Source of the DNA: Rhodovibrionaceae bacterium GXU_MW_A322
GTDB taxonomy: Bacteria; Pseudomonadota; Alphaproteobacteria; Kiloniellales; DSM-21159
Direction of reading: 5' to 3'
Length of the DNA: 64,000 nucleotides
Assembly (NCBI GenBank): GCA_052078155.1
Contig: JBQJBP010000006.1
Location: forward strand, 34,581-98,580
Shown piece by piece: positions 44,302-62,800 of this stretch (the stretch's first letter is position 1; every line of letters starts with the position of its first letter). The notes below the pieces were generated by a model, which was not told the DNA's origin, made no database searches, and was given only the letters and a program-made list of their open reading frames with translations. A program made the position numbers and the translations under genes.

Positions 44302-44358
44302 TTTTGTCTCCTCGTCTGGTGGCTCGCAACATCAAACAGACAGCATCAGAGGGCCGGT

Positions 44359-47278: not shown

Positions 47279-47509
47279 GTTCTATCCCGCTCTCGTTTTG
47301 TCCTGTCGGCACCTGCGCCAGGCTCTGGCCAACTTACCATGATCCCCCCAAACAGATCGTCTTTACCCACTGACGATGTATCTCTGATCTCTGCCGCTTT
47401 CCGGCTGCCGGATACATCCTGTCTTTCTACATCAACTCAACAGCTCTTTTCCTTGGTGACAGGGCAGGCGTAACCCCACCCGCATCTCCCTTCTCAAAAG
47501 AGGCTGTGT

Positions 47510-47686
47510 TTAGCTCTTTGCTCTTGTGGAGGAACCGCGTTCTGCCCCCATCAAAAGTATGGCAAAGGTGACGACCGGTGTGACAACGATGGACAAGAGG
47601 AAATAGCCAACAAACCCAATGGTTTTGTGCCGGCCCATCCAGCCAACCGCGATCGACAGTAAGAGATAGATGAAAAAGTAAATCAT
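47510..47686 (-). CDS. small (58 aa) two-helix membrane protein, hypothetical
   Basis: Reverse-strand ORF MIYFFIYLLLSIAVGWMGRHKTIGFVGYFLLSIVVTPVVTFAILLMGAERGSSTRAKS read manually (below the 60-aa cutoff of the ORF track); two hydrophobic helices; 230 nt upstream of the exporter gene. Confidence 0.35.
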   Translation of the reverse strand: MIYFFIYLLLSIAVGWMGRHKTIGFVGYFLLSIVVTPVVTFAILLMGAERGSSTRAKS

Positions 47687-48127
47687 GCCAGTCGTGTCCC
47701 TTACCTAACGTCCCTGCCTTTTTGTTCTTTGTACTTCTGCCGCCGTTTTGATTGCGGCAAAAATCTCTGCTCAGTCGGCGCCTGTTCCGTTCCCGGAAGC
47801 AAAACTCTCACCGGAACCCTTTGCTTTAAGACTGCTTTTCACAGCCTGGCACTTTTGAGTGCTAAGGAGAGTTCTCTGCGTGGCGCGCCCTGGAAACATC
47901 CAGAGAAGCTCCCGACTGCGAAGACGTCACCCTGCAGCATTATCCTCAGCAGTTGCCAAGTCCCTGGCCGTAATCTCGCTTTTGGCTGAACCAAGAACCC
48001 TCAAAGGAATCGGCACCCGGCTTAGCTCCGCTGGTTGTCGCTGCAAACAGCTTGAGAAAAGCGCGGGTGCCGATGAGAAGAAACTCCAAGAACCTGGCCT
48101 GTACCAAAAGAAGAAGGGCCGGGCCTG

Positions 48128-48697
48128 TTAAGCCGCTTTAGCGCCACCCTTCTTGCCGCTGGCTTTGTTCCGCTCCATTTCCTTTTCGAATTCAGCGCGG
48201 AAGTGGGCTTTCATTTCTTCAGGATTGAAGTCCAGCAGCGTACCACCGGCTTCCAGGTGCTGAATGTAAACCCGGCCGATGGCGTAGGTGGCCGCAGCAG
48301 AGAAGCTGGGCATGGTCAGCAGCGCCAGCGGTGCACCAATCACCGGAATGGCTTTGATGGCAGAACCAACGGAGCCCCAGGTCAGCACGTTCGGCACGAT
48401 GCTGCCCAGCAGGGCAGTGATGATGTTCTTGGCGGTGTGCTCGCTGAAGGAGTGACCGTAGAGCTTGGACAGCTTGTTGATCATGTTCAGCTGAACGCCG
48501 GTTACCGTGGCCATGTCCAGGACAGGCACGGGAATGCAGCCCGCGCCAAAGGACCAGGCGCTCAGACGGCGAACCATGGATTGCGCTTCGGCAAGGCGAT
48601 GGGCTTCAGCGTCCACCAGGCTTTCGGGGGCATCAGCTTGATCAGCGGTATTTTCAACAGTGCTCATGTTCTTCTCCCTGCGGGACTTGTTTGTCAA
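48128..48697 (-). CDS. hypothetical protein, DUF697-like membrane-associated domain
   Basis: 189 aa; acidic N-terminus then amphipathic/hydrophobic core (AIKAIPVIGAPLALLTMPSFSAAATYAIGRVY) resembling DUF697 (YcjF C-terminal type); Lys-rich tail. Family assignment is tentative. Confidence 0.5.
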   Translation of the reverse strand: MTNKSRREKNMSTVENTADQADAPESLVDAEAHRLAEAQSMVRRLSAWSFGAGCIPVPVLDMATVTGVQLNMINKLSKLYGHSFSEHTAKNIITALLGSIVPNVLTWGSVGSAIKAIPVIGAPLALLTMPSFSAAATYAIGRVYIQHLEAGGTLLDFNPEEMKAHFRAEFEKEMERNKASGKKGGAKAA

Positions 48698-49221
48698 AGC
48701 CAGCGGCTGCTGGAGACCAGGGTCAGAAGAATGCCCTTATTCTATCGGAAGGTGTTGCAGCTGCAGCTCAACACTCAACTCCGGATTTCAGGGTGCCTTC
48801 TGACTTTACCCTCATTCAAATTCAACCACTCTCAGGCCTTACAGAACTTCCTTAGCCAGCAAGCAGATCCGGAAAACCCGGGCCTTCCATTTCATCTGCC
48901 TGTGCGTGACCAGATGTCGTCTGTTCAGCCTTTTGCCCAACGGTTCCAGCGGTTTGTTCCTATCCTGAAGGAAAAGAGACCGCGGGGTCCTGGATCAAAT
49001 CTATGACCAACCTGTGTGACTTGCCTGTCTTTTCAACGGACCAATCCACCGAGATCACAAATCGCATTTTTCTGCTCCGCGAGAGGCGTAGCACTCTCCA
49101 CTCTATTCTAACTGGATTATTAATGCTAGATGGGGAGACCCCTTTTTTGGCAAATTGTTCAAGTGCTAGAAGGGTTTGACATTACCTTTTTGCAAGAATT
49201 CTGGCGGGGAAGGACTTTCGG

Positions 49222-50586
49222 GTGGGCAGGCAGCAGACAGGCAGTTCAAGCAGGGCAAAGGCCCCCGGTCCCAAAGGTCTGGCGGGCATGGGGCTGATCA
49301 AGGCCTTTAACAAGAACGCCGCCGACGCGCTGCTGGATTTGAACCGTCATTACGGGGATCTGGTGCAGTTTACCTTTGCCGGTAACTTTAACAGTCTGGT
49401 GGCCCATCCTGATCAGATTCAGGAGGTCTTGATTGACAAAGCCTCTCTCTTTCAAAAGGGCCTGGTCTACAAAGCTTACGAGCCGCTGATCGGGCAGGGG
49501 TTGCTGACCAGCGACGGCGCTGTCTGGGAAAAGACGCGCCGAATCGCCGGGCCTTCCTTTAAGGGCCCTCGGCTCAAAAGCTTTGCAGCCACGGCCGCCC
49601 GCCTCAGTCAGAAACGAGCGGATGACTGGCTTAAGCAGGCCAAAGGCAACTGGCTGGATCTGGCCGTGGTGCCGGAAATGAACCGCCTGACGTTTGAGAT
49701 CATCTCGGAAGCGCTCTTTTCAGAAAATCTCTCCCTGGAAACCGATCGCCTGTTTGAAGCGCTCGATAAGGCCAACAAGGAAGGCACAGCGCGCATCCGC
49801 AGCCCTTTGAAATGGCCTTACCATTGGCCCACACCAGCCAACAAACGCTACCAGCGGGCCGTGGCCATTCTGGACGAGGTGGTGGAATTGATGGTGGAGC
49901 GGCGCCTGGGTATGGAGACGCCGCCTGACGACTATTTCACCACCCTGGTGGCGGCCATGACGGCCGGTGACATTGACCGCAAGATGGTGCGCGATCAGGT
50001 GCTGACTTTTCTCTTTGCCGGGCATGAAACCACCAGCAATGGACTGAGTTGGTCGCTGTACCTGCTGGCCGGACATCCGGCGGTCATGGAAGAGGCAGCC
50101 CAGGAAGTGGCGACCGTACTGGGCGACCGTCAGCCGGAGCAGGAGGATCTGGCAAAGTTGCCGTTCCTGAGGGCGGTTTTTGAAGAATCCATGCGGTTGT
50201 ATCCGCCCATCTACGCCCTGCAGCGCCGCTCTCTGGAGGATCTGGAGATTGGGGGCTATGCCATTCCGGCCAGCACAGGTGTGACCATTTCTCCTTATGT
50301 CACTCACCGCCATCCGGCTTTCTGGGACGATCCCGACGCCTTCAATCCGGAACGTTTTGTCGGGGAGGCTGTGCGCAGTCGACCCCGTCTGGCTTACCTG
50401 CCCTTTGGGGCGGGACCGCGGACCTGCATCGGCGCGAACTTTGCCATGGCGGAAGCTCTGGTGCTCTTGGTGGCCATCCTGCAGCGCTTTAAGCTGGTCT
50501 TGTGGGAGGATCAGCCGGTAGCCACCCGCCCGCTCATTTCCCTGGGCCCCGCTTCAGCTCTGCCGGTGAGGTTACTGCCGAAGTGA
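49222..50586 (+). CDS. cytochrome P450 monooxygenase
   Basis: I-helix AGHETTS, EESMRLYPP (ExxR-region), heme loop FGAGPRTCIGANFA; the start could be the MGLIKAF methionine at 49288 instead. Confidence 0.85.
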   Translation: MGRQQTGSSSRAKAPGPKGLAGMGLIKAFNKNAADALLDLNRHYGDLVQFTFAGNFNSLVAHPDQIQEVLIDKASLFQKGLVYKAYEPLIGQGLLTSDGAVWEKTRRIAGPSFKGPRLKSFAATAARLSQKRADDWLKQAKGNWLDLAVVPEMNRLTFEIISEALFSENLSLETDRLFEALDKANKEGTARIRSPLKWPYHWPTPANKRYQRAVAILDEVVELMVERRLGMETPPDDYFTTLVAAMTAGDIDRKMVRDQVLTFLFAGHETTSNGLSWSLYLLAGHPAVMEEAAQEVATVLGDRQPEQEDLAKLPFLRAVFEESMRLYPPIYALQRRSLEDLEIGGYAIPASTGVTISPYVTHRHPAFWDDPDAFNPERFVGEAVRSRPRLAYLPFGAGPRTCIGANFAMAEALVLLVAILQRFKLVLWEDQPVATRPLISLGPASALPVRLLPK

Positions 50587-50616
50587 AGGCAGACCCTTGT
50601 CTCGGAACGAGAGTGC

Positions 50617-51309
50617 CTAGAAAAAACTTGGGCCACCGCAGGGACCGTTGATTAGCTGTTCCCCCACTGTCGTTCTGAAACTCAATGACTTTTGATCTGC
50701 AATTGTAGCGATAATCACTTTGCAGTTGCTCGGGTTGTTTTCCTTAGGGCCAAAGGCAAGTGTCATAGAGGGGAAAACAATGGTGGCAGCCAGAGCTTCG
50801 TGGGTTCCCAATGAGATAGCTCTAGCCCGATTGTGGATTAGGGCTCGGAGCAAATAGGCTTCTTCATTCAAGGTAAGGGGGTGTTGGCCAGGGGCAATAT
50901 CAACCACACAGTTGCGATTGTAGTTGTCCCAGGTTTTTGACTCTTGTTCGATGATCGCGAAACGCGCGCCATTTTTGCCTAACACCCGCCAACGGTCGCT
51001 TTGAGTGCCGTATTTGTACTTCCACTGGTAGGCCTCCTCATCTGAGAGGGCTATCTCTGAAAGGCCGTCCTTATCGATTGCGATGCCATTTTCCACAGCA
51101 TTGCGACAACGGGTAAGCAGATTCTCCCATTGTCTGGCCAGTGTTTTCAGATGGAATTCATCTATCGTGCTGTTGACCGAATTTGCGGTCGATCTGTTGC
51201 CGTTCTGCACTATGGCTGTGGAAACGCCCACGGCTAAAACGGAAAAGAAAATTGTAACAGCGATAATGTAGCGCAACTTTCGGCGTGCGTTGACTTTGGG
51301 TGTCGACAT
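50617..51309 (-). CDS. hypothetical N-terminally membrane-anchored protein encoded in a low-GC patch
   Basis: 230 aa, N-terminal TM (YIIAVTIFFSVLAVGVSTAIV), no recognisable motifs; local GC (~50%) clearly below the flanking ~62%. Confidence 0.55.
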   Translation of the reverse strand: MSTPKVNARRKLRYIIAVTIFFSVLAVGVSTAIVQNGNRSTANSVNSTIDEFHLKTLARQWENLLTRCRNAVENGIAIDKDGLSEIALSDEEAYQWKYKYGTQSDRWRVLGKNGARFAIIEQESKTWDNYNRNCVVDIAPGQHPLTLNEEAYLLRALIHNRARAISLGTHEALAATIVFPSMTLAFGPKENNPSNCKVIIATIADQKSLSFRTTVGEQLINGPCGGPSFF

Positions 51310-51321
51310 TTTGCGTGCGTC

Positions 51322-52383
51322 TCAGTTTTTCAATAGATCTTTGATTTCAGCTTCTTCCGCCGCGTCGCACCAGCGGGCCAGAGCCAGAGAAAAGCGCTCA
51401 AAAGCGGGGCCACTGTCAAAACCCAGCTTGGCGCCGGAAATGACAGTGCGGGCCCAAAGAAAGGCAATGCCCTTGCGATAGTCCTGGGTCACAGTCTCCA
51501 GGCTGTAGTTGTCGACCCCGGCGGCAGTCAGGCTGTCGTGGTAGGCCGCCAGCAACCCGGTAAGGGCTTCTGGCCGGTGGTGGAGGAAGTTTCCGGCAGA
51601 GAGGTAAGCCAGGTCAAAGCCGCCACGACCTTTGATGACCGTCTGCCAGTCCAGCAGGGCCCAGCCGCCATCAGCAAAAAACAGCAGATTGTCCAGCCGC
51701 AGATCACCGTGCAGCACTGTGGCCGGTTCCTGGCTCAGATCTGATCTCAGCTTTGTCAGGGCTGTTCCGGCTGTCGGGGCCAGGTGGTGCAACCAGTCGG
51801 GCAGCTGTTCGCCAAAGGTCTTTTCAAAGGCTGGCCAGCAAGCCTGATAGAAGGCTGCAATGTCCGGGCCCTGATCCAGTCGGGGCAGCCAGTCCGGCAG
51901 TGCTTTGCCATCAGGCCTTTGCCAGAAGTGGGCGTGGAACGCTGCAAGATCTTTGACGATAAAGCTGGCCTTCTTTGGTGCCATGCCGCGCAACTGGTCG
52001 CCGGGGCAGCCGTCCTTCAGGTCTTCCAGCAGCAGGATCGGGGCTGCGTCGTCTCCGCCGCTGGCCAGCAGTTGTGGAATGGTCAGTGGGGAACCATCGG
52101 CCAATTGCTCCAGAAAGAGCTTTTCGCGCTGATAGAAGCCCATCTGGCTCATCATCTGCCGGATTTGAGGGTCCTGTGACGGCAGCTTAACCACCAGACT
52201 GTCGGTGGGGCCTGATGTAAGCGACACCCGCGCCAGTTCGCCGGAAAAGCCGCTGTCTTCCCCCAGCGCTGTCACGGTGATGGGACCGGGAGGCTGGTTC
52301 AGAATCCCGGCAATCCACTCAGCTGTTATGTCGTTGCGCCCAAATGCCTTTTCGGCCGAAGCCTGCTCCCCCTGCTGTGTCAT
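51322..52383 (-). CDS. phosphotransferase-family kinase (APH / CHK / ecdysteroid-kinase-like)
   Basis: 353 aa; catalytic HGDLRLDN and DWQ motifs with an N-terminal nucleotide-binding lobe; start overlaps the stop of the upstream FAAL gene. Confidence 0.75.
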   Translation of the reverse strand: MTQQGEQASAEKAFGRNDITAEWIAGILNQPPGPITVTALGEDSGFSGELARVSLTSGPTDSLVVKLPSQDPQIRQMMSQMGFYQREKLFLEQLADGSPLTIPQLLASGGDDAAPILLLEDLKDGCPGDQLRGMAPKKASFIVKDLAAFHAHFWQRPDGKALPDWLPRLDQGPDIAAFYQACWPAFEKTFGEQLPDWLHHLAPTAGTALTKLRSDLSQEPATVLHGDLRLDNLLFFADGGWALLDWQTVIKGRGGFDLAYLSAGNFLHHRPEALTGLLAAYHDSLTAAGVDNYSLETVTQDYRKGIAFLWARTVISGAKLGFDSGPAFERFSLALARWCDAAEEAEIKDLLKN

Positions 52384-55300
52384 TACAGGTCTTCGACCTC
52401 CTTCAATAGGGCGTCCAGTTCTTCTTCCAGGCCGACCTCAGCAGCAGGCTGGATCTGTTTGGCTTTTGCTTCTGTGGGCGTTGGGGCGGGGGCCTGTCTG
52501 CTCCTTGTCTTGCTTCCCGTTTTCGGGGCTTTCCCTTTGGTCAGGCCCGTGCGGTCCCGGGCCAGAAAGGCCGCCAGCTTGGCAATGGAGGGGTAGTCCC
52601 AGATCAAGGTGGCATCCACAGGCCGTTCCAGGTGGCTTTCCAGGTCCATGGCCAGATTGGTCGCTGAAACGGAATCCATGCCCAGGGTGGCAAAGGGACG
52701 GCTCCGGTCGATGCTGCCCATGGGCAGTGACAGAGCCTGAGCCAGCCAGTCGATCATCCAGTTTTCCAGGCCCAGAGCCGAGGATGTTCCGGAAGTCTGC
52801 TCCGCTTTGTTTGCTGCGGATTTAGGTTTGGGCGTTGCCTCAGTTGCTCGTGCGGGAGGAGGGGGAGTGGAGGTTACTCCTCGATTCTCTGAGAGTTTTG
52901 CGTCGTCTGAAGTCTGGTTGACCGCTTGCTTGGGTGAGGCGGGCAAGTCGTTGGCAGCGGCTGTTTCTGTCGGGGAAACCCGGATGGCATCGGAAGGAGA
53001 CATCCCCTCGTTGAGGCTGCTGTTGAGACTGCTGTCGAGGCTTGTGTCCAGGGCTTGTTCGAGTCCTGGACGCTCGCGACCGGCAGCTCCGATGGCCGCG
53101 CTGTATCCGGCAACGAGAGACTGGAATTCCTCCCCGTCCGGCAAGTCCAGCTGCCGGTCCGTCAGGGCGGTCAACTCCGCCAGTGCAGCATCCAGTTTCC
53201 CTCTTGCCCAGGTCAGGGCCCGGGTTGTGGCAGGGGGCAGGGCCGTGCCGCTGCTTTGGCCTTCCAGAGCTGCAAGGCAAATGGCCCAGGCTGCCGCTTC
53301 ACCACTGTGCTGATTGCGCAGCAGGCGGTCATCCATCTGGTTGGCGGCAGTGTTGGCGGTTGTGGTGTCACTGGCTGGTTCTGACGGGGTTGGTTGTGAT
53401 TGGGCTGGCAACCCTGCTTCCAGCTGCCGGGCAGTTTCCTGCCCGCCCAGATCGGCCCGCAGCAGGGCGTCGATGGCCTGAGGTTGGGCGGACAGCCGGG
53501 CCCCCAGGTGATGGCGCACCACTTCGGTGGGTCCTTCAAAGACCCGGATGGCGCGGGCATCGCGCAGCACCTGGGCCACGCGGTTGTTTTCCATGTATCC
53601 CCGACCGCCCAACTGCTGCAGGGTTTCGTCGGTGATCTGCCAAAGCAGTTCCGGTGCCAGAATTTTCAGTGCGCTGTAGAGATCTTCCGGCGCTCCCTCC
53701 GCGGAGTCCGCCAGATGGGCGGTGGCCTGAACCAGTGCCTCCAGGGCGGTGATGGCGCTGCTGGCCTCCAGCAGACCCTGGCGTACCAGCGGGTGATCCA
53801 GCAAACGTCCGGTGATGACCTGACGCTGGCTGACGAAGTGATGACGCAGCCGCAGCATCTCTTTCATCGCGCCCAGACAGAGCGCTGCCAGGCAAAGCCG
53901 GGTAAAGCGCATGGCGTCCTGCGCCACATCCAGTCCTTGCCCTGCGCCGCCAATGCGGTCTGCGTCACTCAGGCGAACCTCACGGAAATGCACGCGGTTC
54001 TGGACCGTGGCGCGCAGGCCCATGGTGTCGGCTTCCGGCCCGGTGCTGAAGCCGGTCATGCCCCGGCGCAAGAGGAAGGCGGATATGCCCAAGGGGCTGC
54101 CGTCTGCGGCCTTTTCCCGGGCAAAACTATGCAGATACTGCGCCCAGGCGGAAGATCCGCTCCAGATTTTTTCCCCGTTCAGTTCCAGCCCCTGATTGTC
54201 GGGCAGGCCCTGGGCGATGGCTTCGATGCCGCGCACGTTGGAACCCGCAGCAGGTTCAGTATAGGCAAAGGCGATGAGGCGGCGGCCGCTGGCAAGTTCC
54301 GGCAGCAACTCCTGTTTCTGGTCCTCCCGCCCGAAAGCCAGCAGTGGGCGCAAACCCAGGCCGTTCTGTAAAACGGTCATCACGCCCAGACTGAGGTCCA
54401 GCGCGCCGACCTGTTCCAGAACCCGCATGCTGTCCGTTGTCAGCAGGCCTTGCCCGCCATGAATTTCTGGCACCTGCAGCCCCAGCAGGCCAATGTTGCC
54501 AAACTCCAGCAGCAGATGAGGCGCTGGCGTGCGCCGGTCATCCATCTGGCGACTGTCGAGCCTGTCCCGTGCCAGATCCCGCAGGGCGGCCAGCATCAGA
54601 TCAGCCTTGCGGCGGCTGCTGTCCGCATCGCCTTCCACCAGGCAGGATTTCACCCGTGGCAGATGGGTGGTAAAGAGGCCTTTCAGCTTTTCCAGGCGGT
54701 TGTCCAGGAAGGCCTGTCGGCAGGCCCGGCGCTGGATCTTGCCGCTGGAGGTTTTGGCCAGCCCCCCGCGTCCGATGAATGCCAGTTGCTGCAAGGCGAT
54801 GTCATGGGCTTCCGCCACCGCGACCTGGGCTTTTTCGAAGAGATTCGGCAGCGCGTCTTCTTTCAGGCTGCGCGGAACTTCCACCACCAGGCCCAGGGCT
54901 TCGGTGCTGTTGTCCTGGGGATCGGGAAAGGAGAAGGCCGCGGCCTCGCAGCCCTGCAGATCCGGATGACAGGCGGTCAGGGTGGCTTCTATGTCCTGGG
55001 GGAAATGATTGCTGCCGCGGATCACGATCAGGTCTTTCAGCCGGCCGGTGACATAGAGCTCTCCTTCCAGAAAGGCCCCCAGATCGCCGGTGCGCAGATA
55101 GCCCTTTTGCTCTGCTGCCTTACTGTTGGCACGGAGCTCTGCGCCAAAAGCCTCCAGGCTTTCTTCCGGTCTCTGCCAGTAGCCTTTGGCGATCCCGGCA
55201 CCTCTAGCCCAGATTTCACCAATGGTCCCATCCGGGCAGACAGCACCGCTTTCCGGATCAACGACTTTCAGGTCTGTGCTGGGTCCCGGCGCACCACAGC

Positions 55301-56528
55301 CCACCAGTTCAAAGGCGCGGCTGCCGTTTTTGGGTGGCGGCAGCGCTTCCAGCCGGCCCTGTTCCAGGGCTTCGGCATCCGCCAGAATCCGGGTGGGCGG
55401 GCCGTCGCCCTGTTTGGCCGTCAGCAGCAATGTGGCTTCGGCCAGGCCGTAAGACGGATAAAAGGCCTTGTCTGAAAAACCGCAGGCCGAAAAGGTCTCG
55501 AAAAATCGGTCCAGGGTTTTCGGGCGCACAACTTCAGCCCCGTTGCTGGCCACGCGCCAGGAGCTGAGGTCCAGGCCTTTGTGGTCGGCGGCGCGGGTGC
55601 GTTCCACACAATAGAGGTAGCCGAAGTCGGGCGAGGCGCTGTGGGTGGCTTTGAAGCTGGAAATGGCTTTAAGCCAGCGTAAGGGAGAGCGCAAAAAGGC
55701 CACGGTCGGCATGATGTAGCCGGGAATGCCGGAGTAGAGCGGCTGCAGCAGCCCCTCCACCAATCCGTAGTCGTGGAAATAGGGCATCCAGTGGACGGCC
55801 ACTGAATCCGGGTCGTAGCGCCAGAGCTCCCGGTTGTAGGCCAGATTGGCCATCAGGCTGTCCTGGCTGACCATGGCGCCTTTTGGGGTGCCGATGGAGC
55901 CGGAGGTATATTGCAAATAAGCAATGTTCTGGTCGTTGGACCGGGGGGGGTAGGCGCTAGTGCTGGCTGGCAGAGCGCTGCTGTCGATGCGCGGCAGGCT
56001 GGCCAGTCCCTCCAGGCGGCTGCCCAGCTGTTCGAGCAGAGACAGGGTCGGGGGGTCGGCCAGGATCATGCTGGCCCCGGAATCCTCCACAATAGACAGC
56101 AGCCGGGGCAGGGTGCGTTTCAGGCGGCTGGCTTCCGGTGGCGGGGCGGGAATGGCGATGACCCCCAGGTCCAGGCAGGCCAGAAAGGCGGTCACAAACT
56201 CCAGGGGGGAAGCATAAAGCAGTAAGGCCCGATCCCCCGGAGCCAGCCGTTCTTCCAGGCTTTTGGAGAGGCCCCAGACCCGTGCCTGCAGGTCTTTGTA
56301 GCTGAGCTGATGGGTCAGGGTTTCTCCCTGTTGCAGCAGACCCAGAGCCAGTTGCTCGCCTTTTGTGTCTGCCCAGTGAGCCAAACGCAGGGCCAGACTG
56401 GTCTGTGGCCTGTGTCCTGACGACTCCAGACCTTTCTTCGCCTTGCCGTCTTGTTCTATCGCTGCGGGTTCTGGCGTCGATTTGGCAGCCATACTTTCAA
56501 AGTCCCTGTTTACTTGCTTGTGCCTCAC
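52383..56528 (-). CDS. fatty acyl-AMP ligase - acyl-CoA dehydrogenase-like domain - acyl carrier protein (FAAL-ACAD-ACP tridomain lipoinitiation protein)
   Basis: FAAL region ([60 protein letters not shown]); central ACAD fold ([15 protein letters not shown], ...[30 protein letters not shown]); Thr/Pro/Ala/Ser-rich linker; C-terminal carrier domain ([18 protein letters not shown]). Confidence 0.85.
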   Translation of the reverse strand: [1381 protein letters not shown]

Positions 56529-56819
56529 CTCTTGTCATGTCTGGCAGAGGTGTTTTTTCGCTGCGGAATGGGACCCGGTGGACTGTCACCGATTTGTCTC
56601 ATTTCGCTCAGGCCAAGTGCAGTTTTTTGACATCTTTGTGCATTTTTGCACCGAAAGCCAGAGGAAAGCCTGGGCTCAGATTAGCCCGTTTTGGGGGGTA
56701 ACTACATTAAAAGTCAGCCATCTTTTCAATTTGTTGGGTGAAGAATCTGACATGACGCTTATACTACTGTCAGATGATCCGTTGAGGCCGACCTGGCCCG
56801 ACGCAGACATCTTCTGGCG

Positions 56820-59800
56820 ATGACTCCGAAAAATAAGCGGCAGCAGAAAATGAACGATCGCCCGAACAAGGGACAGGACCAGCGTCTGTCAGCGGCCGTT
56901 GAGGCCATCAAGAAGCTCAAGGCGCGGGTGGCGGAACTGGAGGCGGAACGCTCTGAGGCCATTGCGGTTGTGGGGCTGGGCTGTCGTTTTCCCGGCGCCG
57001 CCGATTCGCCTGCTGCTCTTTGGGATCTGCTGAGCCAGGGCCGCGACGGCATTACCGCTGTCCCGGCAGACCGCTGGGATGCGGAGGCCTGGTATGACCC
57101 GGACCCTCAGGCCCCGGGAAAAACCCACAGCCGCTGGGGCGGTTTCCTGGATCAGGTGTCAGAATTCGACAGTGGTTTTTTCGGTCTCAGCCCAAAAGAG
57201 GCAGACAATCTGGACCCCCAGCAGCGGATCTTTCTGGAAAGCTGCTGGTCGGCTTTGGAAGATGGCGGTCAGGCCGGGGATCTGGAAGCGCTCGGTTCCG
57301 TTGGGGTCTTCGCAGGCATCTCTACGGCCGACTACTCCCGTTTGGGCCTCTGGTCGGGCGATCTGACGGACATCTCCGCTTACAGCTATACCGGTTCTTC
57401 TGCCAACGCCCTGGCGGGGCGCGTTTCCTATCTTCTGGGGCTGGAAGGCCCGGCGCTGGCTGTGGATACGGCCTGTTCCTCATCGCTGGTGACGGTGCAT
57501 CTGGCCTGTCAGGCGCTGCGCAACAAAGAGTGCGACCTGGCGCTGGCCGGCGGGTCCAACGTCATGCTCAGTCCCGAGATGTCGGTTTTCTTCTCCAAGG
57601 TCGGGGCGGTCACAGGCGAGGACCGTTGCCGGGTTTTCGACGCCAGGGCTCAGGGCTACCTGCGCGGTGAAGGGGCAGGTGTTGTTCTTCTCAAGCGCTT
57701 GAGTCAGGCGCTGGCTGATGGGGACCCCATCCGGGCGGTGATCGCCGGTTCTGCGGTCAACCAGGACGGCGCCTCCAACGGCTTTACAGCCCCCAACGGG
57801 CCGTCCCAGCAACGGGTGGTCCAGCAGGCGCTGGCGGCTGCCCATCTGCCCGCTTCATCCGTTGATTACGTTGAGTGTCACGGGACTGGGACCCCTTTGG
57901 GCGACCCGATTGAGGTTGGTGCTTTGGGGTCGGTTTTTGGGGATCGTGACGGATCTTTGCTGTTGGGATCGGTAAAGACGAATCTGGGTCATCTGGAGGC
58001 GGCGGCTGGCATTGCGGGACTGATCAAGACTGTTTTGAGTCTTGAGGCGGGTGCTTTGCCAGCGTCGTTGCATTTTGAGGAGCCCAATCCTGCGATTGCC
58101 TGGGGGTCTTTGCCTGTTGAGGTTGTGACGGGCTTGCGTGCCTGGCCAGAGAAGGCTGCGGGCGAGGCGCGTGTTGCGGGCGTGAGTTCTTTTGGCATGA
58201 GCGGAACGAACGCGCATGTTGTTCTGACGTCAGCGCCGGAGCGTGAGGAGGTGTCTCGTGCCGCGCCGGCCCGTCCGGTGATTTTGCCTCTCTCTGGAGC
58301 CAGTGTCGGTGGTCTGGAGGGCCAGATAGCCGCGCAGGTATCCCACCTGTCCGCCGCAGCAACCCGCGGGCTTGATGCCCTTGAGCCTGATGCCCTTGAG
58401 CCTGATGCCCTTAAGCCTGGGGCTCTGTTTGACCGGAGCTGGTCTTTGGCCACTGGCCGGGCGGCCTTGCGGCAGCGGGCGGCGAGCGTTGGGTCTGATG
58501 GTGCATCGTTGAGCGACTTTTCCATCCGGGGGTCCGCCGGGTCTGGCCGTGAGGGCTGTGTTTTTCTTTATCCCGGTCAGGGGTCTCAGTGGGCGGGCAT
58601 GGGCCTTGAGCTGGCTGAGAGCGAGCCGGTGTTTCAGGCCGGGCTGGAGGCTTGCGCGGATGTTGTGGGCTCAGAGCTGCTGGAGGTCTTGAAGGACGCC
58701 GGACGTCTGACGGACACGCGCTGGACGCAGCCGGCGGTTTTTGCGGTGAGCTGGGCGCTGGACCGCTTGCTGGCGAGCTGGGGCGTAGAGCCTGTGGCGG
58801 TGCTGGGCCATTCGGTGGGTGACTATGTGGCGGCGGTTCGCTCCGGGGCGCTGGACTTTGAGAGGGGGTTGGGCCTGCTGGACAAGCGGGCGCAGCTGAT
58901 GGGCAGCCTGCCGGCTGGCGGTGCTATGGCGAGCCTGCGCTGTTCGGCAGAACAGGCGCCAGAGCTGCTGGCTGAGGGGATCGTGATTTCGGCGATCAAT
59001 GGGCCGAGCGCGATAACGGTCTCTGGCCCGGAGGCAGGGATTGCGGCAACGCTGGTGGCCGCTGAGCAGAAGAACATTCATGGCAGGCGGCTGCCTGTAA
59101 GCCATGCCTTTCATTCTCCTGCCATGGCCCCGGCAGCAGCGGAGCTGCGGTCCTTTGCGGCGGCCAGTCCCTTTGGAGAGGCTGAGCTGGGCTGGATCAG
59201 CAATGTGACCGGCAGCTGGCACCGGGGTGAGAGCGCAGCGGACTACTGGGCCGAGCAGCTGACCAGCCCGGTGGCGTTCTGGGCGGGCCTGGAGACCCTT
59301 TACGGGGCCGGTCATCGCCGCTTTCTGGAGGTGGGCCCGGGCACCGGTCTGGCCGGTCTGGTGGCGCAGCTCAAGCCGAAGGGCTCGACGAGCAACGGCA
59401 CAACAAATGGCACGACAGGCCTCACGCTGCTGAAAGAGGATCAGCCTGAGGCTCTGTCACTTGCCAGAGGTCTGGCGGGCTACTGGTGCTCGGGCGGAGA
59501 GCTGGACTGGGAGGCCTATTGCAATGAGCCGGGCCAGGCGGGTCCGCGCCGGAAAATCAGCCTGCCGGGCTATGCCTTTGACCGTCAGCGGCACTGGCTG
59601 GAGACAGCGGCGAGCCGGGCGCTGCAGGCCGGAGGCGACCTGAGCAAGGCCCTCTATACAGAAGAACTTTCTCCCTTGCCCCGGTCTGGTGAGGCAGCAT
59701 CTGAGGTTGGACCTTTACGGTTGCTGGGGCCCGGGGCGAAAGCTCTCAAGCTGCCGAGCGATGAGGCAGGCCAGCCTGTCTATGTCCTGCCCACAGAGTT

Positions 59801-62800
59801 GAGTGCGGCACAGACCGAGAAGGCTCTGGTGGAACTGGCGGGCCTGCTGGGCGCAGAAGAAAGCGTGACGGTGCTCACCCGGGGCGGGCTGCTGGCCCGG
59901 ACCTTTGAGAGCTTCTGCCGCACGGCGCAGTTAGAGCAGCCTGAGGCTGTGAGGTATCTGGATTGGGACGGGCAGGCAGCAGATCAGCTTGCTGAGGTGT
60001 TGAGTGCCGCGCGGCCGGATCTGGCGGTTCTGCGGGACGGCCAGCTCTATGGGCCGGAGCTGAGCCCGGCCAGGCTGGACCTGCCGGGCCAGGACCTCAA
60101 ACTGTCAGAGACCGGAAAGTATCTGGTGACCGGCGGGGCCGGAGCCTTGGGCCAGGGCCTGGCCGGACGGCTGCTGGCCGCGGGAGCCGGTGAGGTGATC
60201 CTGACGGGCCGCCGGGCCGTCAAAGAGATTTCTCTCTCCGAGACACTGAAAGACGCGCGCGTCTCCTATCGACAGCTGGACCTGAGCAAAGCCAAAGCGG
60301 TTGAGGCGGCTCTGGCAGAACTGGGTCCCCTTGCTGGGGTGGCGCATCTGGCCGGGTCCGGGAACTTTGCGCCAGCGGCTGAGACAACGGCAGCCCGGGT
60401 GAAAGCCACCTTTGGCGGCAAGCTGGGCGGGGCCCGGGTGTTGGCTGAGGCCTTGCTCAAACAGGCAGACAAGCCGGACTGGGTTTTACTCTATGGCTCA
60501 ATCTCAGCGGTCTGGGGCTCGAAAGGTCAGGCGGTTTACGGGGCGGCCAACGGCGGGCTCAAGGGCCTGGCGGAAGAATTGAAGGCCCAAGGTTTGCCAG
60601 CTCTTTGCATTAACTGGGGGCCCTGGTCGCTGGAGGATCCAGCAAAGAACCCGGCTGGGGGCGGCATGACCGACGAAGGGGCTCTCCAGTTGCTCAGGGG
60701 CATCGGGGTGTCGGGCCTGAGACCTGCAGCGGTGGGTCTGTTGGAAAACCGTCTGCTCCAGGCCCTGCAGTCCGGTAAGGAGTTACCCGCCAGCCTGACG
60801 GTGGCGGAGGTGGACTGGGATCAGTTCGCGCCGGTCTATGAGGTGCAGGGACAGCGGGCCTTTCTGAACAGAGTTCGTCCCACAGCGCCGCTGGCCGCTG
60901 TTGCCGCTGGCGGTGGTTCAGCGTTCCAGAAGACGTTGGAAAGCCTGCCGGGCGCTGCCAGACGCAGCAAGGTTCTGGCCCTGCTGCAGGAACAGGCGCA
61001 GGCCGTGATGGGCTTTGATACCGCCAGTGGTGACAGCCTGCCGGAGGACCGGGGCCTGTTTGAGCTGGGCCTGGATTCTTTGATGGCGGTGTCTTTGGCC
61101 AGGTCTTTGAGCCAGACCCTGGGCCAGGAAGTTCCGGCCACGCTGATCTTTGACAAGCCGCAGCTGGGGTCGCTGGCGACCGGGCTGCTGGAGCTACTGG
61201 GGCTGTCCGGCGACAGTGAGGGGCCTGTTGAAACCTCCTCGGTGGCAAGCAGCGCCGGGACCCAAACAGAAAACCAGCCTGCGGCTGTGGCGATTGTGTC
61301 TGTTGCCTGTCGTCTGCCGGGCAGCGTCGAGACGCCCGAGGCGTTGCAGGCGGCTTTGCTGGCCGGGCTGGATGGCATCCGGGAGGTGGAGGCGGATCGC
61401 TGGTCGGCGGAGCGCTTTACCTCTGAGGGCGGGAGCGAGCCGGGCACCATGGCGACCAGCCGGGGCGGCTATCTGGATCTGCAAAAGGGTCTGGATGCGG
61501 GTCTTTTTGGCCTGTCGCCGCGTGAGGCCAGCCGTCTGGAGCCGCAGCAGAGATTGCTGCTGGAGGTATCCTGGGAGGCTTTGGAGCGGGCGGGCATTGC
61601 CGCAGACAGCCTGTGGGGCACAAAGGGCTCGGTTTTTGTTGGCCTGTCGAACAATGACTTTGGTCCGCTGCTGCAGGCAGAGGATGGTCTGGAGGGACTG
61701 GACCTGCACCATGCCACGGGCAATGCCCTGTCGGCGGCGGCGGGTCGGCTCAATCATTTTTACGGGTTAAGAGGTCCGGCTTTGGCCCTGGACACGGCCT
61801 GCTCGTCCAGTTTGAGCGCCATACATCTGGCCTGCCGCTCGCTGCTCTCGGGGGAAAGTGATCTGGCCCTGGCGGGTGGGGTGAACGTGATCTTGTCACC
61901 GGCGGTCTCGGTTGCGGCGGCCAGGGCGGGCATGCTCTCGCCCGAGGGGCGCTGCAAGACCTTTGACGGCACGGCGGACGGTTATGTGCGCGGTGAGGGC
62001 TGTGGTCTGGTGGTGCTGAAGCGGCTGGAGGATGCGCAAAGAGACGGGGATCCCATTGAGGCGGTGATTTTGGGCACGGCGCTCAATCACAACGGCACCA
62101 GCGGGGGGCTGACGGTGCCCTCGGGCCCGGCCCAGGAGGCGCTGATCGGCGAGGCCCTGAGCGCCGCCAACATCCAGGCCAGCGACATTCAAGTGTTGGA
62201 GGCCCATGGCACGGGCACGGCTTTGGGCGATCCCATTGAGCTGACAGCGGCGGCCAGAGCGCTGTCCCAGGGGCGCCCGGAGGAGCGTCCGCTCAAGCTG
62301 GGGTCCGTGAAGACCAATCTGGGTCATCTGGAGTCTGCGGCGGGCATGGCGGGTCTGACCAAGCTGGTGGCGGCTTTGCAGGATGAGGTTCTGCCCGGGC
62401 AACTGCCTTTGCCGACCGAGCCCAACAGCAAGATCCCCTGGGCGGATCTCAATGTTGAGGTTCTGCAGACGCCTCTGGCCTGGCCCCAACAAGCAGGCAA
62501 AGTCCGTCTGGCAGGCCTGTCGTCATTTGGCTTTACCGGCACCAATGGTCATCTGATCCTCGCCGGCCCCGAAGTGGCCACCTCCGTGGCTGTTCAGTCC
62601 GGCACTGCCGGTGAGGACGGGACTGACCTGAGCTCTACGGGACCCTGGCCCATTCTGCTCTCTGCCAAGTCCAAAGAGGCGCTGAGCGCCCTGGCCAGGG
62701 CCTATGCGGACTGGCTGACAGGGGACGAGGATCTGGCGCAGTTGAGCTGGACGACGCTGACCGGGCGCGCGCGGCTGAGCCAGCGGCTGGCGCTCCAGGC

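What the first reader, a model, noticed from the sequence alone, without database searches (positions are those of the whole stretch)
52383..56528. FAAL-ACAD-ACP tridomain: lipoinitiation with built-in acyl-ACP dehydrogenase
One polypeptide fuses a fatty acyl-AMP ligase (FAAL insertion-type motifs present, not a CoA ligase), an acyl-CoA-dehydrogenase-fold domain and a C-terminal carrier domain.

Inference: the fatty acid is adenylated, tethered to the ACP and desaturated (alpha,beta or other) on the carrier before hand-off to the divergent PKS, which then feeds the Cstarter NRPS. Separate FAAL, ACP and desaturase proteins are known (e.g. jamaicamide JamABC). A covalent FAAL-ACAD-ACP arrangement positioned divergently from the PKS is uncommon and predicts an unsaturated or branched-functionalised lipid tail.
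Basis: partly seen in the sequence, partly recalled or inferred. Interest (0 to 1): 0.7.

Follow-up and report, generated by a model that had tools for sequence, protein, structure and literature searches.

The report
Fatty-acid loading enzyme with built-in desaturase
This gene encodes a real three-part enzyme that activates a fatty acid, holds it on its own carrier and probably desaturates it before passing it to a lipopeptide assembly line; the design is common and already described, but in this small group of bacteria it is always followed by an unexplained kinase gene.

Summary
Window 52383..56528 (- strand) is one ORF (1381 aa from GTG; NCBI starts it at M13, 1369 aa). Its domain order is FAAL, acyl-CoA-dehydrogenase (ACAD), helical extension, linker, ACP.

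- **FAAL:** it carries the FAAL-specific insertion, and its best solved relatives are all FAALs.
- **ACAD:** the catalytic Glu (E998) and FAD-associated motifs are conserved in all 121 aligned relatives. The predicted fold is the long VLCAD/ACAD9 type.
- **ACP:** it has the DS serine (S1286).

The claim that the architecture is uncommon is not supported. 118 of the 120 best database clusters share it, mostly in cyanobacteria as PKS loading modules. NvlI (nostovalerolactone) has been published as FAAL-ACAD-ACP. Enduracidin Orf45 is a FAAL-ACAD fusion. NocC and NocI are ACAD-type acyl-ACP dehydrogenases shown to work in vitro.

In the window and its closest relatives (window, six other complete loci and two contig-end fragments), an APH/EcKL kinase gene follows the tridomain gene, usually overlapping it by 4-8 nt. 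A convergent CYP4/BM3-like P450 follows in seven. Ten other tridomain loci lack the kinase.

Most likely this is a lipoinitiation module that makes an enoyl-ACP starter for a KR-only, DH-less PKS and then an NRPS. The kinase's role is unknown.

The parts
52383..56528 (-). Whole FAAL-ACAD-ACP gene. 1381 aa from GTG 56528; NCBI start is ATG 56492, giving 1369 aa.
54687..56372 (-). FAAL domain. N-terminal AMP-binding lobe aa 53-451 and DIP2-like C-terminal lobe aa 499-614. Core motifs: [11 protein letters not shown] (207-217), YGLAE (360-364), GEIWARG (437-443), KTSSGKIQR (592-600).
55302..55415 (-). FAAL-specific insertion region (aa 372-409). It is absent from E. coli FadD and from the window's NRPS A domains, and aligns contiguously with the olefin-synthase FAAL 7R7E.
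53493..54599 (-). ACAD core (aa 644-1012). Motifs: YTEPAAGSN (756-764), KIWSGSS (787-793), conserved helix-G Arg in RFTRLC (874-879), LQQLGGRGY (970-978).
53535..53537 (-). Codon of the predicted catalytic base Glu998 (in RVFEGPTE). It aligns with the catalytic Glu of VLCAD/ACAD9 (FEGTN) and is invariant in the alignments.
53091..53486 (-). Helical C-terminal extension of the ACAD (aa 1015-1146). It is predicted with high confidence and superposes on the extra C-terminal domain of VLCAD/ACAD9.
52764..53090 (-). Low-complexity Pro/Ala/Ser/Thr-rich linker (aa 1147-1255). It is poorly conserved, and pLDDT is below 50 over the part of it that was modelled (about aa 1154-1190).
52563..52751 (-). 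ACP (PP-binding, aa 1260-1322). Phosphopantetheine-attachment Ser1286 lies in LGMDSV (codon 52671..52673).
52386..52436 (-). Acidic helical C-terminal tail ([17 protein letters not shown]), a putative docking element for the basic coiled-coil N-terminus of the PKS. This is inference.
   Evidence: conserved L..LS..E...LLA.E consensus at the family C-terminus
51322..52383 (-). APH/EcKL-family small-molecule kinase, 353 aa. Its start overlaps the tridomain stop (ATGA). Motifs: K66, HGDLRLDN (225-232), D245-W-Q.
49222..50586 (+). Cytochrome P450, convergent with the kinase. Closest solved relatives include CYP97, CYP4B1 and CYP102 (BM3). It is found next to the kinase in 7 of the 9 kinase-bearing loci; the two exceptions are L002 and the truncated plasmid-like contig L168.
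56529..56819 (.). Divergent intergenic region between the tridomain gene and the PKS gene.
56820..64000 (+). Type I PKS, KS-AT-KR-ACP-KS-AT..., which runs off the window. The orthologue in L002 is KS-AT-KR-ACP-KS-AT-cMT-KR-(ACP) with no DH domain.
31921..44301 (-). NRPS, 4126 aa. It starts with a C domain and has 3 A domains, 4 T domains and a TE. It is the presumed downstream acceptor of the lipid-polyketide chain.
44359..48697 (-). SPFH/Band7 protein, cyclic-peptide ABC exporter and DUF697 protein, syntenic with L003 and L169.

Best explanation
The gene encodes a self-contained lipoinitiation (loading) module of a hybrid PKS-NRPS lipopeptide pathway.

1. The FAAL domain adenylates a free fatty acid and transfers it, without CoA, to the phosphopantetheine arm of the C-terminal ACP of the same polypeptide. 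(Inferred from family membership.)
2. The central FAD-dependent ACAD domain is of the long VLCAD/ACAD9 type. That type is dimeric, thanks to its extra C-terminal helical domain (my own knowledge). The domain oxidises the tethered acyl chain in cis, most likely to a 2-enoyl-ACP. (Inferred from conserved catalytic residues and from biochemical precedent for stand-alone ACAD-type acyl-ACP dehydrogenases. The regiochemistry is not shown.)
3. The acidic C-terminal tail docks the ACP onto the basic N-terminus of the divergently encoded PKS. The two KR-containing, DH-less PKS modules would extend the unsaturated starter into a hydroxylated chain. That chain passes to the C-domain-first NRPS and is released by its TE. 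(Inferred from domain order and synteny.)

This architecture is a widespread and already described kind of loading module. What distinguishes the clade containing this window is an APH/EcKL-family kinase translationally coupled to the tridomain gene, usually with a fatty-acid-hydroxylase-like P450 beside it. These two most likely hydroxylate and phosphorylate the lipid or polyketide chain, but their step and purpose are unknown.
For: **Domains.** Pfam domains are in the stated order, all above cut-off.

**FAAL identity.**
- The best NCBIfam matches are FAAL models.
- The 15 best solved relatives are all FAALs: Ols FAAL 7R7E at 401 bits, Legionella 3KXW, FadD32, FadD23, FadD28, EcFAAL. CoA ligases such as FadD13 score about 60 bits over fragments.
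- There is a 21-29-residue excess between motifs A5 and A6 relative to E. coli FadD and the local A domains.

**ACAD integrity.**
- E998 aligns with the catalytic Glu of VLCAD/ACAD9. It is invariant in a 12-sequence alignment and at least 95% conserved among 121 tridomain proteins, as are TEPxAGSN, KxWSG and QxLGGRGY.
- The AlphaFold model has pLDDT 88 and pTM 0.89.
- Foldseek aligns 530-575 columns, core plus extension, with ACAD9 and VLCAD at TM about 0.73.

**Carrier.** The ACP Ser in G.DSV is conserved.

**Link to the PKS.** A PKS lies adjacent or nearby in the window, L001, L002, L089 and the P0005 contig, and directly downstream in cyanobacteria.

**Precedent.**
- NvlI FAAL-ACAD-ACP is proposed to oxidise octanoyl before PKS extension (PMC9324945).
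- NocC/NocI desaturate C6-C12 acyl-ACPs in vitro (PMC9486936).
- ACAD genes sit between the FAAL and ACP genes in lipopeptide clusters with unsaturated tails, and Orf45 is a FAAL-ACAD fusion (PMC9113097).
Against: - No biochemical data exist for any fused FAAL-ACAD-ACP protein. NvlI's role is a proposal only.
- The position and geometry of the double bond cannot be read from sequence. On my own knowledge, LipB and TamT are ACAD-family enzymes reported to give delta-3 bonds.
- The electron acceptor (ETF, O2 or other) is unknown, and no ETF genes were seen near the gene.
- NCBIfam FAAL scores are below the curated cut-offs of the individual subfamily models.
- The strict coupling to a kinase in this clade is not required by the simple desaturation model, and the model does not explain it. 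The clade also has its own substitutions in the ACAD: L858R, Q893R, N912H, M1006H, F1007H.
Confidence: 0.72

Rival explanations
1. Kinase-assisted chemistry on the carrier, analogous to ACAD10/ACAD11 and LvaA/LvaC. The P450 hydroxylates the ACP-bound acyl chain (for example at C4). The coupled kinase phosphorylates that hydroxyl. The ACAD domain's alpha-proton abstraction and oxidation then drives loss of phosphate. This would give a 2,4-dienoyl-ACP, or a shifted enoyl-ACP, rather than a simple 2-enoyl starter.
For: - The kinase gene follows the tridomain gene, usually overlapping it by 4-8 nt, in the window, six other complete loci and two contig-end fragments. It is absent from ten other tridomain loci.
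- A profile of 53 kinase homologues finds as its best solved relatives 3DXP (a stand-alone ACAD10/11-type APH domain, E 1e-11) and mouse ACAD11 (E 1.4e-8).
- The nearest kinase outside the clade (P0138) sits in a kinase-ACAD-MaoC hydratase operon.
- The P450 is related to fatty-acid hydroxylases such as CYP102 and CYP4B1.
- The clade has its own Arg/His gains in the ACAD domain.
- ACAD10/11 chemistry is established (bioRxiv 10.1101/2024.01.09.574893).
Against: - The ACAD domain has Glu, not the Asp base of ACAD10/11/LvaC.
- It lacks the HCMR motif and upstream Arg on helix G. Helix G here reads [15 protein letters not shown].
- ACAD11 is not among its 60 best solved sequence relatives.
- The same ACAD domain, with the same catalytic motifs, works without a kinase in the large cyanobacterial clade.
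- The Foldseek search of the kinase model is non-discriminating: generic APH, choline and homoserine kinases at TM 0.45-0.6.
- Only 5 of 66 metagenomic loci of the wider kinase family with enough flank have an ACAD within 3 kb.
- The clade-specific Arg/His residues could not be placed relative to the active site.
Confidence: 0.13
2. The kinase and P450 are late tailoring or self-protection enzymes. They would act on the PKS-derived hydroxyls or on the finished lipopeptide: a phosphorylated pro-drug, a resistance mechanism, or a phosphorylation-elimination surrogate for the missing DH domains. On this view they have no direct link to the ACAD step. The tridomain then works exactly as in cyanobacteria.
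For: - The PKS has two KR domains and no DH, so free hydroxyls are available.
- The APH family is best known for phosphorylating finished antibiotics. Viomycin, capreomycin and macrolide kinases are among the profile and fold hits.
- The weak NCBIfam top hit is the lanthipeptide kinase LxmK, which phosphorylates for elimination.
- Tridomains function without a kinase elsewhere.
Against: - Overlapping stop and start codons with the loading-module gene, rather than with the PKS, NRPS or exporter genes, are kept in the six kinase-bearing loci where both gene ends are on the contig and an overlap exists. This points to co-translation and stoichiometric partnership.
- L168 keeps only the tridomain-kinase pair on a plasmid-like contig.
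Confidence: 0.3
3. The ACAD region is a catalytically silent scaffold or dimerisation domain, and the module simply loads a saturated fatty acid.
For: - On my own knowledge, ACAD9 shows that a VLCAD-type fold can serve a mainly structural role, as a complex I assembly factor.
- The long-type ACAD fold is dimeric, which suits a dimeric PKS (inference).
Against: The catalytic Glu, the thioester/FAD loop FEGPTE, TEPxAGSN, WSG and QxLGGRGY are conserved at 95% or more across 121 proteins at only about 36-55% overall identity. This is hard to explain without catalysis.
Confidence: 0.05

Closest known systems
NvlI, loading module of nostovalerolactone biosynthesis in Nostoc punctiforme (PMC9324945)
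   Same: The authors describe it as FAAL, ACAD and ACP domains that activate a fatty acid (octanoate), oxidise it, and pass it to type I PKS modules. This is the same domain order and the same role in front of a PKS.
   Different: - NvlI's function is a proposal, not shown biochemically.
- Its sequence was not compared here.
- The paper mentions no kinase.
- In cyanobacterial homologues the PKS gene follows co-directionally, with no kinase or P450.
- The products differ: a tetronate-like lactone versus a predicted lipopeptide.
Enduracidin Orf45 (fused FAAL-ACAD), and the FAAL / ACAD / ACP gene sets of friulimicin, laspartomycin, taromycin and malacidin (PMC9113097)
   Same: A FAAL plus ACAD-family dehydrogenase(s) plus an ACP make unsaturated lipid starters for lipopeptide NRPSs. 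Orf45 already fuses the FAAL and the ACAD.
   Different: - In those systems the ACP is free-standing.
- The chain goes straight to a starter C domain with no PKS in between.
- They are actinomycete systems.
- No kinase is reported.
NocC and NocI, stand-alone acyl-ACP dehydrogenases of the noc/cly locus (PMC9486936)
   Same: These ACAD-family enzymes have been shown in vitro to desaturate C6-C12 acyl chains carried on an ACP that is loaded by a FAAL.
   Different: They are separate proteins acting in trans. No sequence comparison with this domain was made here.
Olefin synthase FAAL-ACP loading didomain (PDB 7R7E/F/G), and other FAAL-ACP loading modules
   Same: It is the best solved relative of the FAAL domain (401 bits, aligned end to end including the insertion). 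It is also a loading module of a type I PKS.
   Different: It has no ACAD domain between the FAAL and the ACP.
VLCAD and ACAD9 (long, dimeric acyl-CoA dehydrogenases)
   Same: They are the best sequence and fold matches of the ACAD region, including the extra C-terminal helical domain, and the catalytic Glu is at the same position.
   Different: They act on free acyl-CoA in beta-oxidation or complex I assembly and are not fused to a ligase or carrier. Identity is only about 22-23%.
ACAD10/ACAD11 and LvaA/LvaC (kinase plus ACAD removal of a 4-hydroxyl via a phosphate ester)
   Same: An APH-family kinase is genetically tied to an ACAD-fold enzyme acting on a thioester-bound acyl chain. The kinase profile's best solved relatives are of this type.
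   Different: - The ACAD here keeps Glu instead of Asp.
- It lacks the HCMR/Arg phosphate-site markers.
- The substrate would be ACP-bound, not CoA-bound.
- The context is biosynthetic, not catabolic.
JamA/JamB/JamC of jamaicamide
   Same: A FAAL and an ACP load a fatty acid that is desaturated on the carrier before PKS extension.
   Different: On my own knowledge, JamB is a membrane-bound di-iron desaturase that makes a terminal alkyne. It is not a flavin ACAD, and the three are separate proteins.

Membership tests
Fatty acyl-AMP ligase (FAAL) | ANL-superfamily adenylation fold with the core motifs (A3 SGxxGxPKG, A5 YGxxE, A8 GRxxD, A10 Lys) | tested here: met
   Pfam AMP-binding E 3e-56. The motifs [27 protein letters not shown] and KTSSGKIQR were located.
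Fatty acyl-AMP ligase (FAAL) | FAAL-specific insertion in the N-terminal lobe, absent from acyl-CoA ligases | tested here: met
   There are 77 residues between A5 and A6, against 48 in E. coli FadD and 52-56 in three NRPS A domains. The insert aligns with tridomain homologues and aligns contiguously with FAAL 7R7E.
Fatty acyl-AMP ligase (FAAL) | Closer to FAALs than to CoA ligases in sequence | tested here: met
   The 15 best PDB hits are FAALs at 214-401 bits, while FadD13 and other FACLs score 60 bits or less over fragments. The top NCBIfam models are FAAL families, although all fall below their subfamily-specific cut-offs.
Fatty acyl-AMP ligase (FAAL) | Transfers acyl-AMP to holo-ACP and rejects CoA | not testable with these tools
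   This needs an enzyme assay.
Acyl-CoA dehydrogenase superfamily (active flavin dehydrogenase) | Three-domain ACAD fold (N helical, middle beta, C helical) | tested here: met
   Pfam N, M and C domains are all above cut-off. The model has pLDDT 88. Foldseek gives TM 0.86-0.92 on the target side to many ACADs.
Acyl-CoA dehydrogenase superfamily (active flavin dehydrogenase) | Catalytic base Glu on the loop before the last core helix (MCAD E376 / VLCAD position) | tested here: met
   E998 in RVFEGPTE aligns with FEGTN of VLCAD and ACAD9. It is invariant in A1 and at least 95% conserved in 121 sequences.
Acyl-CoA dehydrogenase superfamily (active flavin dehydrogenase) | FAD-binding residues | tested here: inconclusive
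   The motifs that carry the FAD contacts in known ACADs (TEPxAGS, WxxG[ST], QxxGGxGY) are present and conserved. No cofactor was modelled, and the assignment of contacts rests on my knowledge of MCAD and VLCAD.
Acyl-CoA dehydrogenase superfamily (active flavin dehydrogenase) | Oxidises an ACP-tethered rather than a CoA-bound substrate | not testable with these tools
   This is inferred from fusion between a FAAL and an ACP, and from the NocC/NocI precedent.
VLCAD/ACAD9-type long ACAD | Additional C-terminal helical domain after the ACAD core | tested here: met
   Helices at model residues 387-517 (aa 1015-1146) have high pLDDT. ACAD9 and VLCAD align over 530-575 columns, against about 375 columns for short ACADs. 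Sequence similarity in the extension itself is undetectable.
ACAD10/ACAD11/LvaC-type phospho-eliminating ACAD | Catalytic Asp in place of Glu | tested here: not met
   Glu998 is conserved. The marker is defined in bioRxiv 10.1101/2024.01.09.574893.
ACAD10/ACAD11/LvaC-type phospho-eliminating ACAD | HCMR motif and upstream Arg on the active-site helix | tested here: not met
   The corresponding helix reads [18 protein letters not shown]. Only the Arg common to all ACADs is present. The positional correspondence was derived by offset from the catalytic residue, not from a structural superposition.
ACAD10/ACAD11/LvaC-type phospho-eliminating ACAD | Fused to or encoded next to an APH-type kinase | tested here: met
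   The kinase gene is immediately downstream with an ATGA overlap, and this is conserved across the clade.
Carrier protein (ACP, PP-binding) | PP-binding domain with the conserved Ser for phosphopantetheine attachment | tested here: met
   PF00550 E 2e-10. S1286 lies in LGMDSV, and G.DSV is conserved across the family.
FAAL-ACAD-ACP loading module (NvlI type) | The three domains in this order on one polypeptide | tested here: met
   The same Pfam set is found in 118 of the 120 top database clusters.
FAAL-ACAD-ACP loading module (NvlI type) | Encoded next to, and feeding, a type I PKS | tested here: inconclusive
   A PKS starts 292 bp away, divergently, and a PKS is adjacent in relatives. Complementary acidic C-terminal and basic N-terminal tails were seen. 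Actual transfer was not shown.
FAAL-ACAD-ACP loading module (NvlI type) | Direct sequence relationship to NvlI | not tested
The comparison rests on the paper's domain description.
APH/EcKL small-molecule kinase (the neighbour gene) | Kinase fold with beta3 Lys, HxDxxxxN catalytic loop and metal-binding Asp | tested here: met
   Pfam APH scores 53.7 bits against a cut-off of 23.2, and EcKL 44.8 against 22. K66, H225, D227, N232 and D245 are invariant in 53 homologues. The model has pLDDT 93 and matches APH, choline and homoserine kinases.

The most novel reading that the evidence does not exclude
In this mainly alphaproteobacterial clade, the loading module, the coupled APH-type kinase and the P450 would form one unit that performs hydroxylation, phosphorylation and flavin-assisted elimination on an ACP-tethered fatty acyl chain. 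That would be a biosynthetic, carrier-bound counterpart of the ACAD10/ACAD11 and LvaA/LvaC catabolic logic. A single ACAD domain would then install a conjugated diene or a shifted double bond, or an allylic phosphate would be created for later cyclisation. No such phosphate-dependent editing of a lipid starter on a carrier protein has been described.
Probability: 0.13. Interest if true: 0.75.

Novelty: new variant of a known kind. Interest (0 to 1): 0.4.

Why it matters
The tridomain itself is a routine, if biochemically untested, way of giving a lipopeptide or polyketide an unsaturated lipid starter. Confirming it mainly helps predict the product of an orphan cluster in a marine alphaproteobacterium.

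Two points have wider use:

- **No member has been studied.** The FAAL-ACAD-ACP family is large, with at least 118 clusters at 90% identity among the top hits alone. A single in vitro study would annotate hundreds of cyanobacterial and proteobacterial clusters. The family also offers a compact, portable 'load and desaturate' part for pathway engineering.
- **The kinase is unaccounted for.** Its strict translational coupling to the module in one clade, with a fatty-acid-hydroxylase-like P450 alongside, fits no published lipoinitiation scheme. If the kinase acts on the carrier-bound chain, it would extend the recently discovered ACAD10/11 phosphorylation-elimination chemistry from catabolism into natural-product biosynthesis.

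Tried and rejected
1. **Counting the family with the ACAD extension.** I ran the search of protein representatives with the ACAD C-terminal extension alone (aa 1013-1185). It returned only 6 low-complexity, Ala-rich multi-stretch hits and none of the known homologues.

2. **Genome scan for species distribution.** I scanned genome contigs with a junction-spanning alignment (A1). Only five junction-spanning (fused) loci were recovered: Limnoraphis, Noviherbaspirillum, Halomicronema, Trinickia and Cyanothece. The rest were ordinary ACADs. No species count can be given.

3. **Is the ACAD an ACAD10/11-type enzyme?** Rejected. It has a Glu base, lacks the HCMR motif, and ACAD11 is not among the 60 best solved relatives.

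4. **Is the kinase family generally ACAD-linked?** Only 5 of 66 metagenomic loci with enough flank have an ACAD within 3 kb. The link is not general.

5. **Fold search of the kinase model.** It returns generic small-molecule kinases and does not single out ACAD11.

6. **Literature.** No open-access paper holds the combination of FAAL, ACAD, phosphotransferase, P450 and PKS. The 2025 FAAL review lists nostovalerolactone but does not discuss ACAD fusions.

7. **Pseudo-domain and CoA-ligase readings.** Both were tested and rejected.

8. **Placing the clade-specific Arg/His substitutions.** This could not be done, because model coordinates are not returned by the tools.

Full report

Yes. Window 52383..56528 on the - strand is one uninterrupted ORF of 1381 codons starting at GTG. 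NCBI annotates the same frame from the ATG at 56492 as MGO1121115.1, 1369 aa, 'AMP-binding protein', Rhodovibrionaceae bacterium A322, on a 98.6 kb contig. The choice of start does not affect any domain. I number from the GTG.

Pfam finds six domains, all far above the gathering scores:

| Domain | Residues |
|---|---|
| AMP-binding | 53-451 |
| AMP-dom_DIP2-like | 499-614 |
| Acyl-CoA_dh_N | 644-748 |
| Acyl-CoA_dh_M | 753-851 |
| Acyl-CoA_dh_1 | 863-1012 |
| PP-binding | 1260-1322 |

A type I PKS gene begins divergently at 56820 (+) and runs off the window: KS-AT-KR-ACP-KS-AT....

**2. The FAAL domain**

- The best NCBIfam models are FAAL families, although all are below their subfamily cut-offs.
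- The 15 best solved relatives are all bona fide FAALs: olefin-synthase FAAL 7R7E at 401 bits, Legionella 3KXW, FadD32, FadD23, FadD28 and EcFAAL. Acyl-CoA ligases such as FadD13 match only fragments at about 60 bits.
- I aligned the domain with E. coli FadD (fetched as L007), with the three A domains of the window's own NRPS, and with three tridomain homologues. The window protein has 77 residues between motifs A5 (YGLAE) and A6 (GEIW). FadD has 48 and the A domains 52-56. The extra block (aa 372-409) is shared with the homologues and aligns without a break with 7R7E. This is the FAAL-specific insertion.

**3. The ACAD domain**

The second refutation test, a pseudo-domain, also fails to refute.

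- phmmer against the PDB puts ACAD9 (E 6e-50) and VLCAD (E 2e-46) on top. It aligns E998 of RVFEGPTE with the catalytic Glu of their FEGTN loop.
- In an alignment of the window protein with the 120 best database hits, several motifs are at least 95% or at least 80% conserved, at only about 36-55% overall identity. These are the Glu, the FEGPTE loop, TEPxAGSN, KxWSG, the helix-G Arg and QxLGGRGY. In the 12-sequence alignment A1 they are invariant.
- An AlphaFold2 model of aa 630-1190 built on 107 sequences is confident: pLDDT 88, pTM 0.89.
- Foldseek aligns 530-575 columns with ACAD9 and VLCAD at TM about 0.73. Short ACADs align over only about 375 columns.

The roughly 130 residues after the Pfam-defined core (aa 1015-1146) are therefore the extra C-terminal helical domain of the long ACADs. 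On my own knowledge, these long ACADs are dimers rather than tetramers, which would suit a dimeric PKS partner. That last point is inference.

A poorly conserved Pro/Ala/Ser/Thr-rich linker (aa 1147-1255) follows. Over the part of it that was modelled (about aa 1154-1190), pLDDT is below 50. Then comes the ACP, with S1286 in LGMDSV.

**4. How common is the architecture?**

It is not uncommon.

- All 120 best hits in the 5.8-billion-sequence collection carry AMP-binding plus the three ACAD Pfam domains. 118 of them also carry PP-binding.
- Some add a thioesterase, an aminotransferase or a reductase.
- Named sources include Moorena, Nostoc, Nodularia, Calothrix, Lyngbya, Crocosphaera ATCC 51142 and Roseovarius aestuarii.
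- Junction-spanning matches also occur in Noviherbaspirillum and Trinickia.
- In Crocosphaera and Moorena the gene sits directly upstream of, and co-directional with, type I PKS genes. In one metagenomic genome a +TE variant sits among glycosyltransferase and polysaccharide-export genes.

**5. What is already published?**

- NvlI of nostovalerolactone biosynthesis is drawn as FAAL, ACAD and ACP. It is proposed to activate octanoate and oxidise it before four PKS modules (PMC9324945).
- Enduracidin Orf45 is a fused FAAL-ACAD. ACAD genes lie between the FAAL and ACP genes in clusters for lipopeptides with unsaturated tails. That review states that no mechanistic studies had been reported for these enzymes (PMC9113097).
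- NocC and NocI, which are ACAD-family proteins, desaturate C6-C12 acyl-ACPs in vitro (PMC9486936).

So the concept is established and the fused architecture is described. No fused member has been characterised biochemically.

**6.

The tridomain stop codon overlaps the start (ATGA at 52383) of a 353-aa APH/EcKL-family kinase gene at 51322..52383.

*Kinase-bearing loci*

| Locus | Protein / relation to the window | Junction between tridomain and kinase | P450 beside the kinase |
|---|---|---|---|
| window | reference | ATGA overlap (4 nt) | yes |
| L003 | P0001, among the five closest tridomain relatives | 7-nt gap | yes |
| L001 | P0002, Roseovarius aestuarii | 8-nt overlap | yes |
| L002 | P0003 | 8-nt overlap | no |
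| L168 | P0004 | 8-nt overlap | no (plasmid-like contig) |
| JGI contig | P0005 | 8-nt overlap | yes |
| L089 | metagenomic, full cassette | about 250 nt between the aligned ends (tblastn only) | yes |
| L088 | fragment: ACP end, then kinase | about 150 nt between the aligned ends (tblastn only) | contig ends |
| L169 | fragment: kinase 65% identical | 4-nt overlap with an upstream gene end | yes, then DUF697 |

The five closest tridomain relatives (P0001-P0005) are 43-55% identical to the window protein.

*Loci without the kinase.* tblastn finds no such kinase in the ten other fused (tridomain-type) loci in hand: L004-L006 and L008-L012.

*Is the kinase likely to be active?* Yes. K66, H225, D227, N232 and D245 are invariant in 53 homologues. 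The model has pLDDT 93.

*What the kinase resembles.*
- A profile of the 53 homologues finds 3DXP first (E 1e-11). This is a stand-alone APH domain misnamed 'acyl-CoA dehydrogenase'. On my own knowledge it is of the ACAD10/11 N-terminal type.
- Mouse ACAD11 comes next (E 1.4e-8), ahead of antibiotic kinases.
- Foldseek, however, returns generic APH, choline and homoserine kinases and is not discriminating.
- The nearest kinase outside the clade (P0138, 33% identical) lies in a kinase, ACAD, MaoC-hydratase operon.
- Across 66 metagenomic loci of the wider kinase family with enough flank, only 5 have an ACAD within 3 kb.

*The P450.* Among solved structures it is closest to an uncharacterised bacterial P450, then CYP97, CYP4B1 and CYP102/BM3. 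That is compatible with hydroxylation of a fatty chain, which is a weak inference.

**7. Does the kinase change the reading of the ACAD?**

Probably not fundamentally. ACAD10/11 and LvaC remove a kinase-installed 4-phosphate. They are marked by a catalytic Asp, an HCMR motif and an upstream Arg on the active-site helix (bioRxiv 10.1101/2024.01.09.574893).

Here the base is Glu and the corresponding helix reads [16 protein letters not shown]. ACAD11 is not among the 60 best solved relatives. The kinase-free cyanobacterial proteins carry the same catalytic motifs.

Even so, the kinase-bearing clade has its own substitutions in the ACAD domain. Several introduce Arg or His: Q804R, L858R, Q893R, N912H, M1006H, F1007H. 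The last two lie 8-9 residues after the catalytic Glu. I could not place these residues relative to the active site, so they remain unexplained.

**8. The pathway around it**

- The orthologous PKS in L002 reads KS-AT-KR-ACP-KS-AT-cMT-KR-(ACP) with no DH. The window's PKS begins identically.
- A 2-enoyl starter would therefore become a chain carrying two hydroxyls, the first of them allylic to the ACAD-derived double bond (inference).
- The tridomain protein ends in an acidic helix ([17 protein letters not shown]). The PKS begins with a basic coiled-coil-like segment. This looks like a docking pair (inference).
- A 4126-aa NRPS lies at 31921..44301 (-). It starts with a C domain and has three A domains, four T domains and a TE.
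- A cyclic-peptide ABC exporter, an SPFH/Band7 protein and a DUF697 protein lie between. They are syntenic with L003 and L169.
- Genes left of about 31.9 kb look like housekeeping genes.

**9. Verdict**

The finding is real, and its mechanistic core is the best-supported reading: load a fatty acid without CoA, desaturate it on the built-in carrier, and hand it to the PKS. I put that at about 0.7 for an active acyl-ACP dehydrogenase. I am less sure that the bond is specifically alpha,beta.

It is a member of a large, already described, but biochemically untested family. The claim of rarity fails. The only unusual feature is the clade-specific, translationally coupled kinase with its P450. No published lipoinitiation scheme explains it. 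It leaves open, at roughly 0.13, a carrier-bound analogue of ACAD10/11 phosphorylation-elimination chemistry.

Noticed in passing
window 31921..44301 (-): The NRPS has three A domains but four T domains. Read by eye, its last module is C-T-TE with no A domain, so the fourth residue would have to be loaded in trans or the module used in some other way.
   Followed up: no
window 44359..48697 (-); L003 7722..11559; L169 3136..3687: DUF697, a cyclic-peptide ABC exporter and an SPFH/Band7 protein are kept in the same order next to the P450 in related clusters. This suggests they are conserved cluster members of unknown role.
   Followed up: partly
window 50617..51309 (-): A 230-aa hypothetical protein with an N-terminal hydrophobic segment lies between the kinase and the P450. 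It has no Pfam or NCBIfam match and no counterpart in L001-L003.
   Followed up: partly
window 53502..53516, and other ACAD codons (aa 804, 858, 893, 912, 1006, 1007): The kinase-associated clade has its own substitutions in the ACAD domain, several to Arg or His (Q804R, L858R, Q893R, N912H, M1006H, F1007H), plus three Met-to-Leu/Thr changes. Their position relative to the active site could not be determined.
   Followed up: partly
L170 8001..10842: The nearest kinase homologue outside the tridomain clade sits in an APH-kinase, stand-alone ACAD, MaoC-hydratase operon among arginine-biosynthesis genes. This layout resembles LvaA/LvaC or a split ACAD10/11.
   Followed up: partly
L168 849..6911: In one relative, the tridomain-kinase pair lies on a short contig next to Rep3 replication and ParA-like partition genes. 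This suggests a plasmid location, with no PKS visible on the 9.3 kb contig.
   Followed up: no
L006 10001..14566: A FAAL-ACAD-ACP-TE variant (P0006) lies among glycosyltransferase, Wzz and ABC-2 polysaccharide-export genes rather than next to a PKS or NRPS. This hints at a role in making an unsaturated lipid anchor or glycolipid.
   Followed up: no
window 44001..52000 versus 52001..64000: G+C is 0.55-0.57 across the exporter, kinase and P450 stretch, but 0.61-0.66 across the tridomain and PKS genes, and 0.60-0.615 across the NRPS.
   Followed up: no
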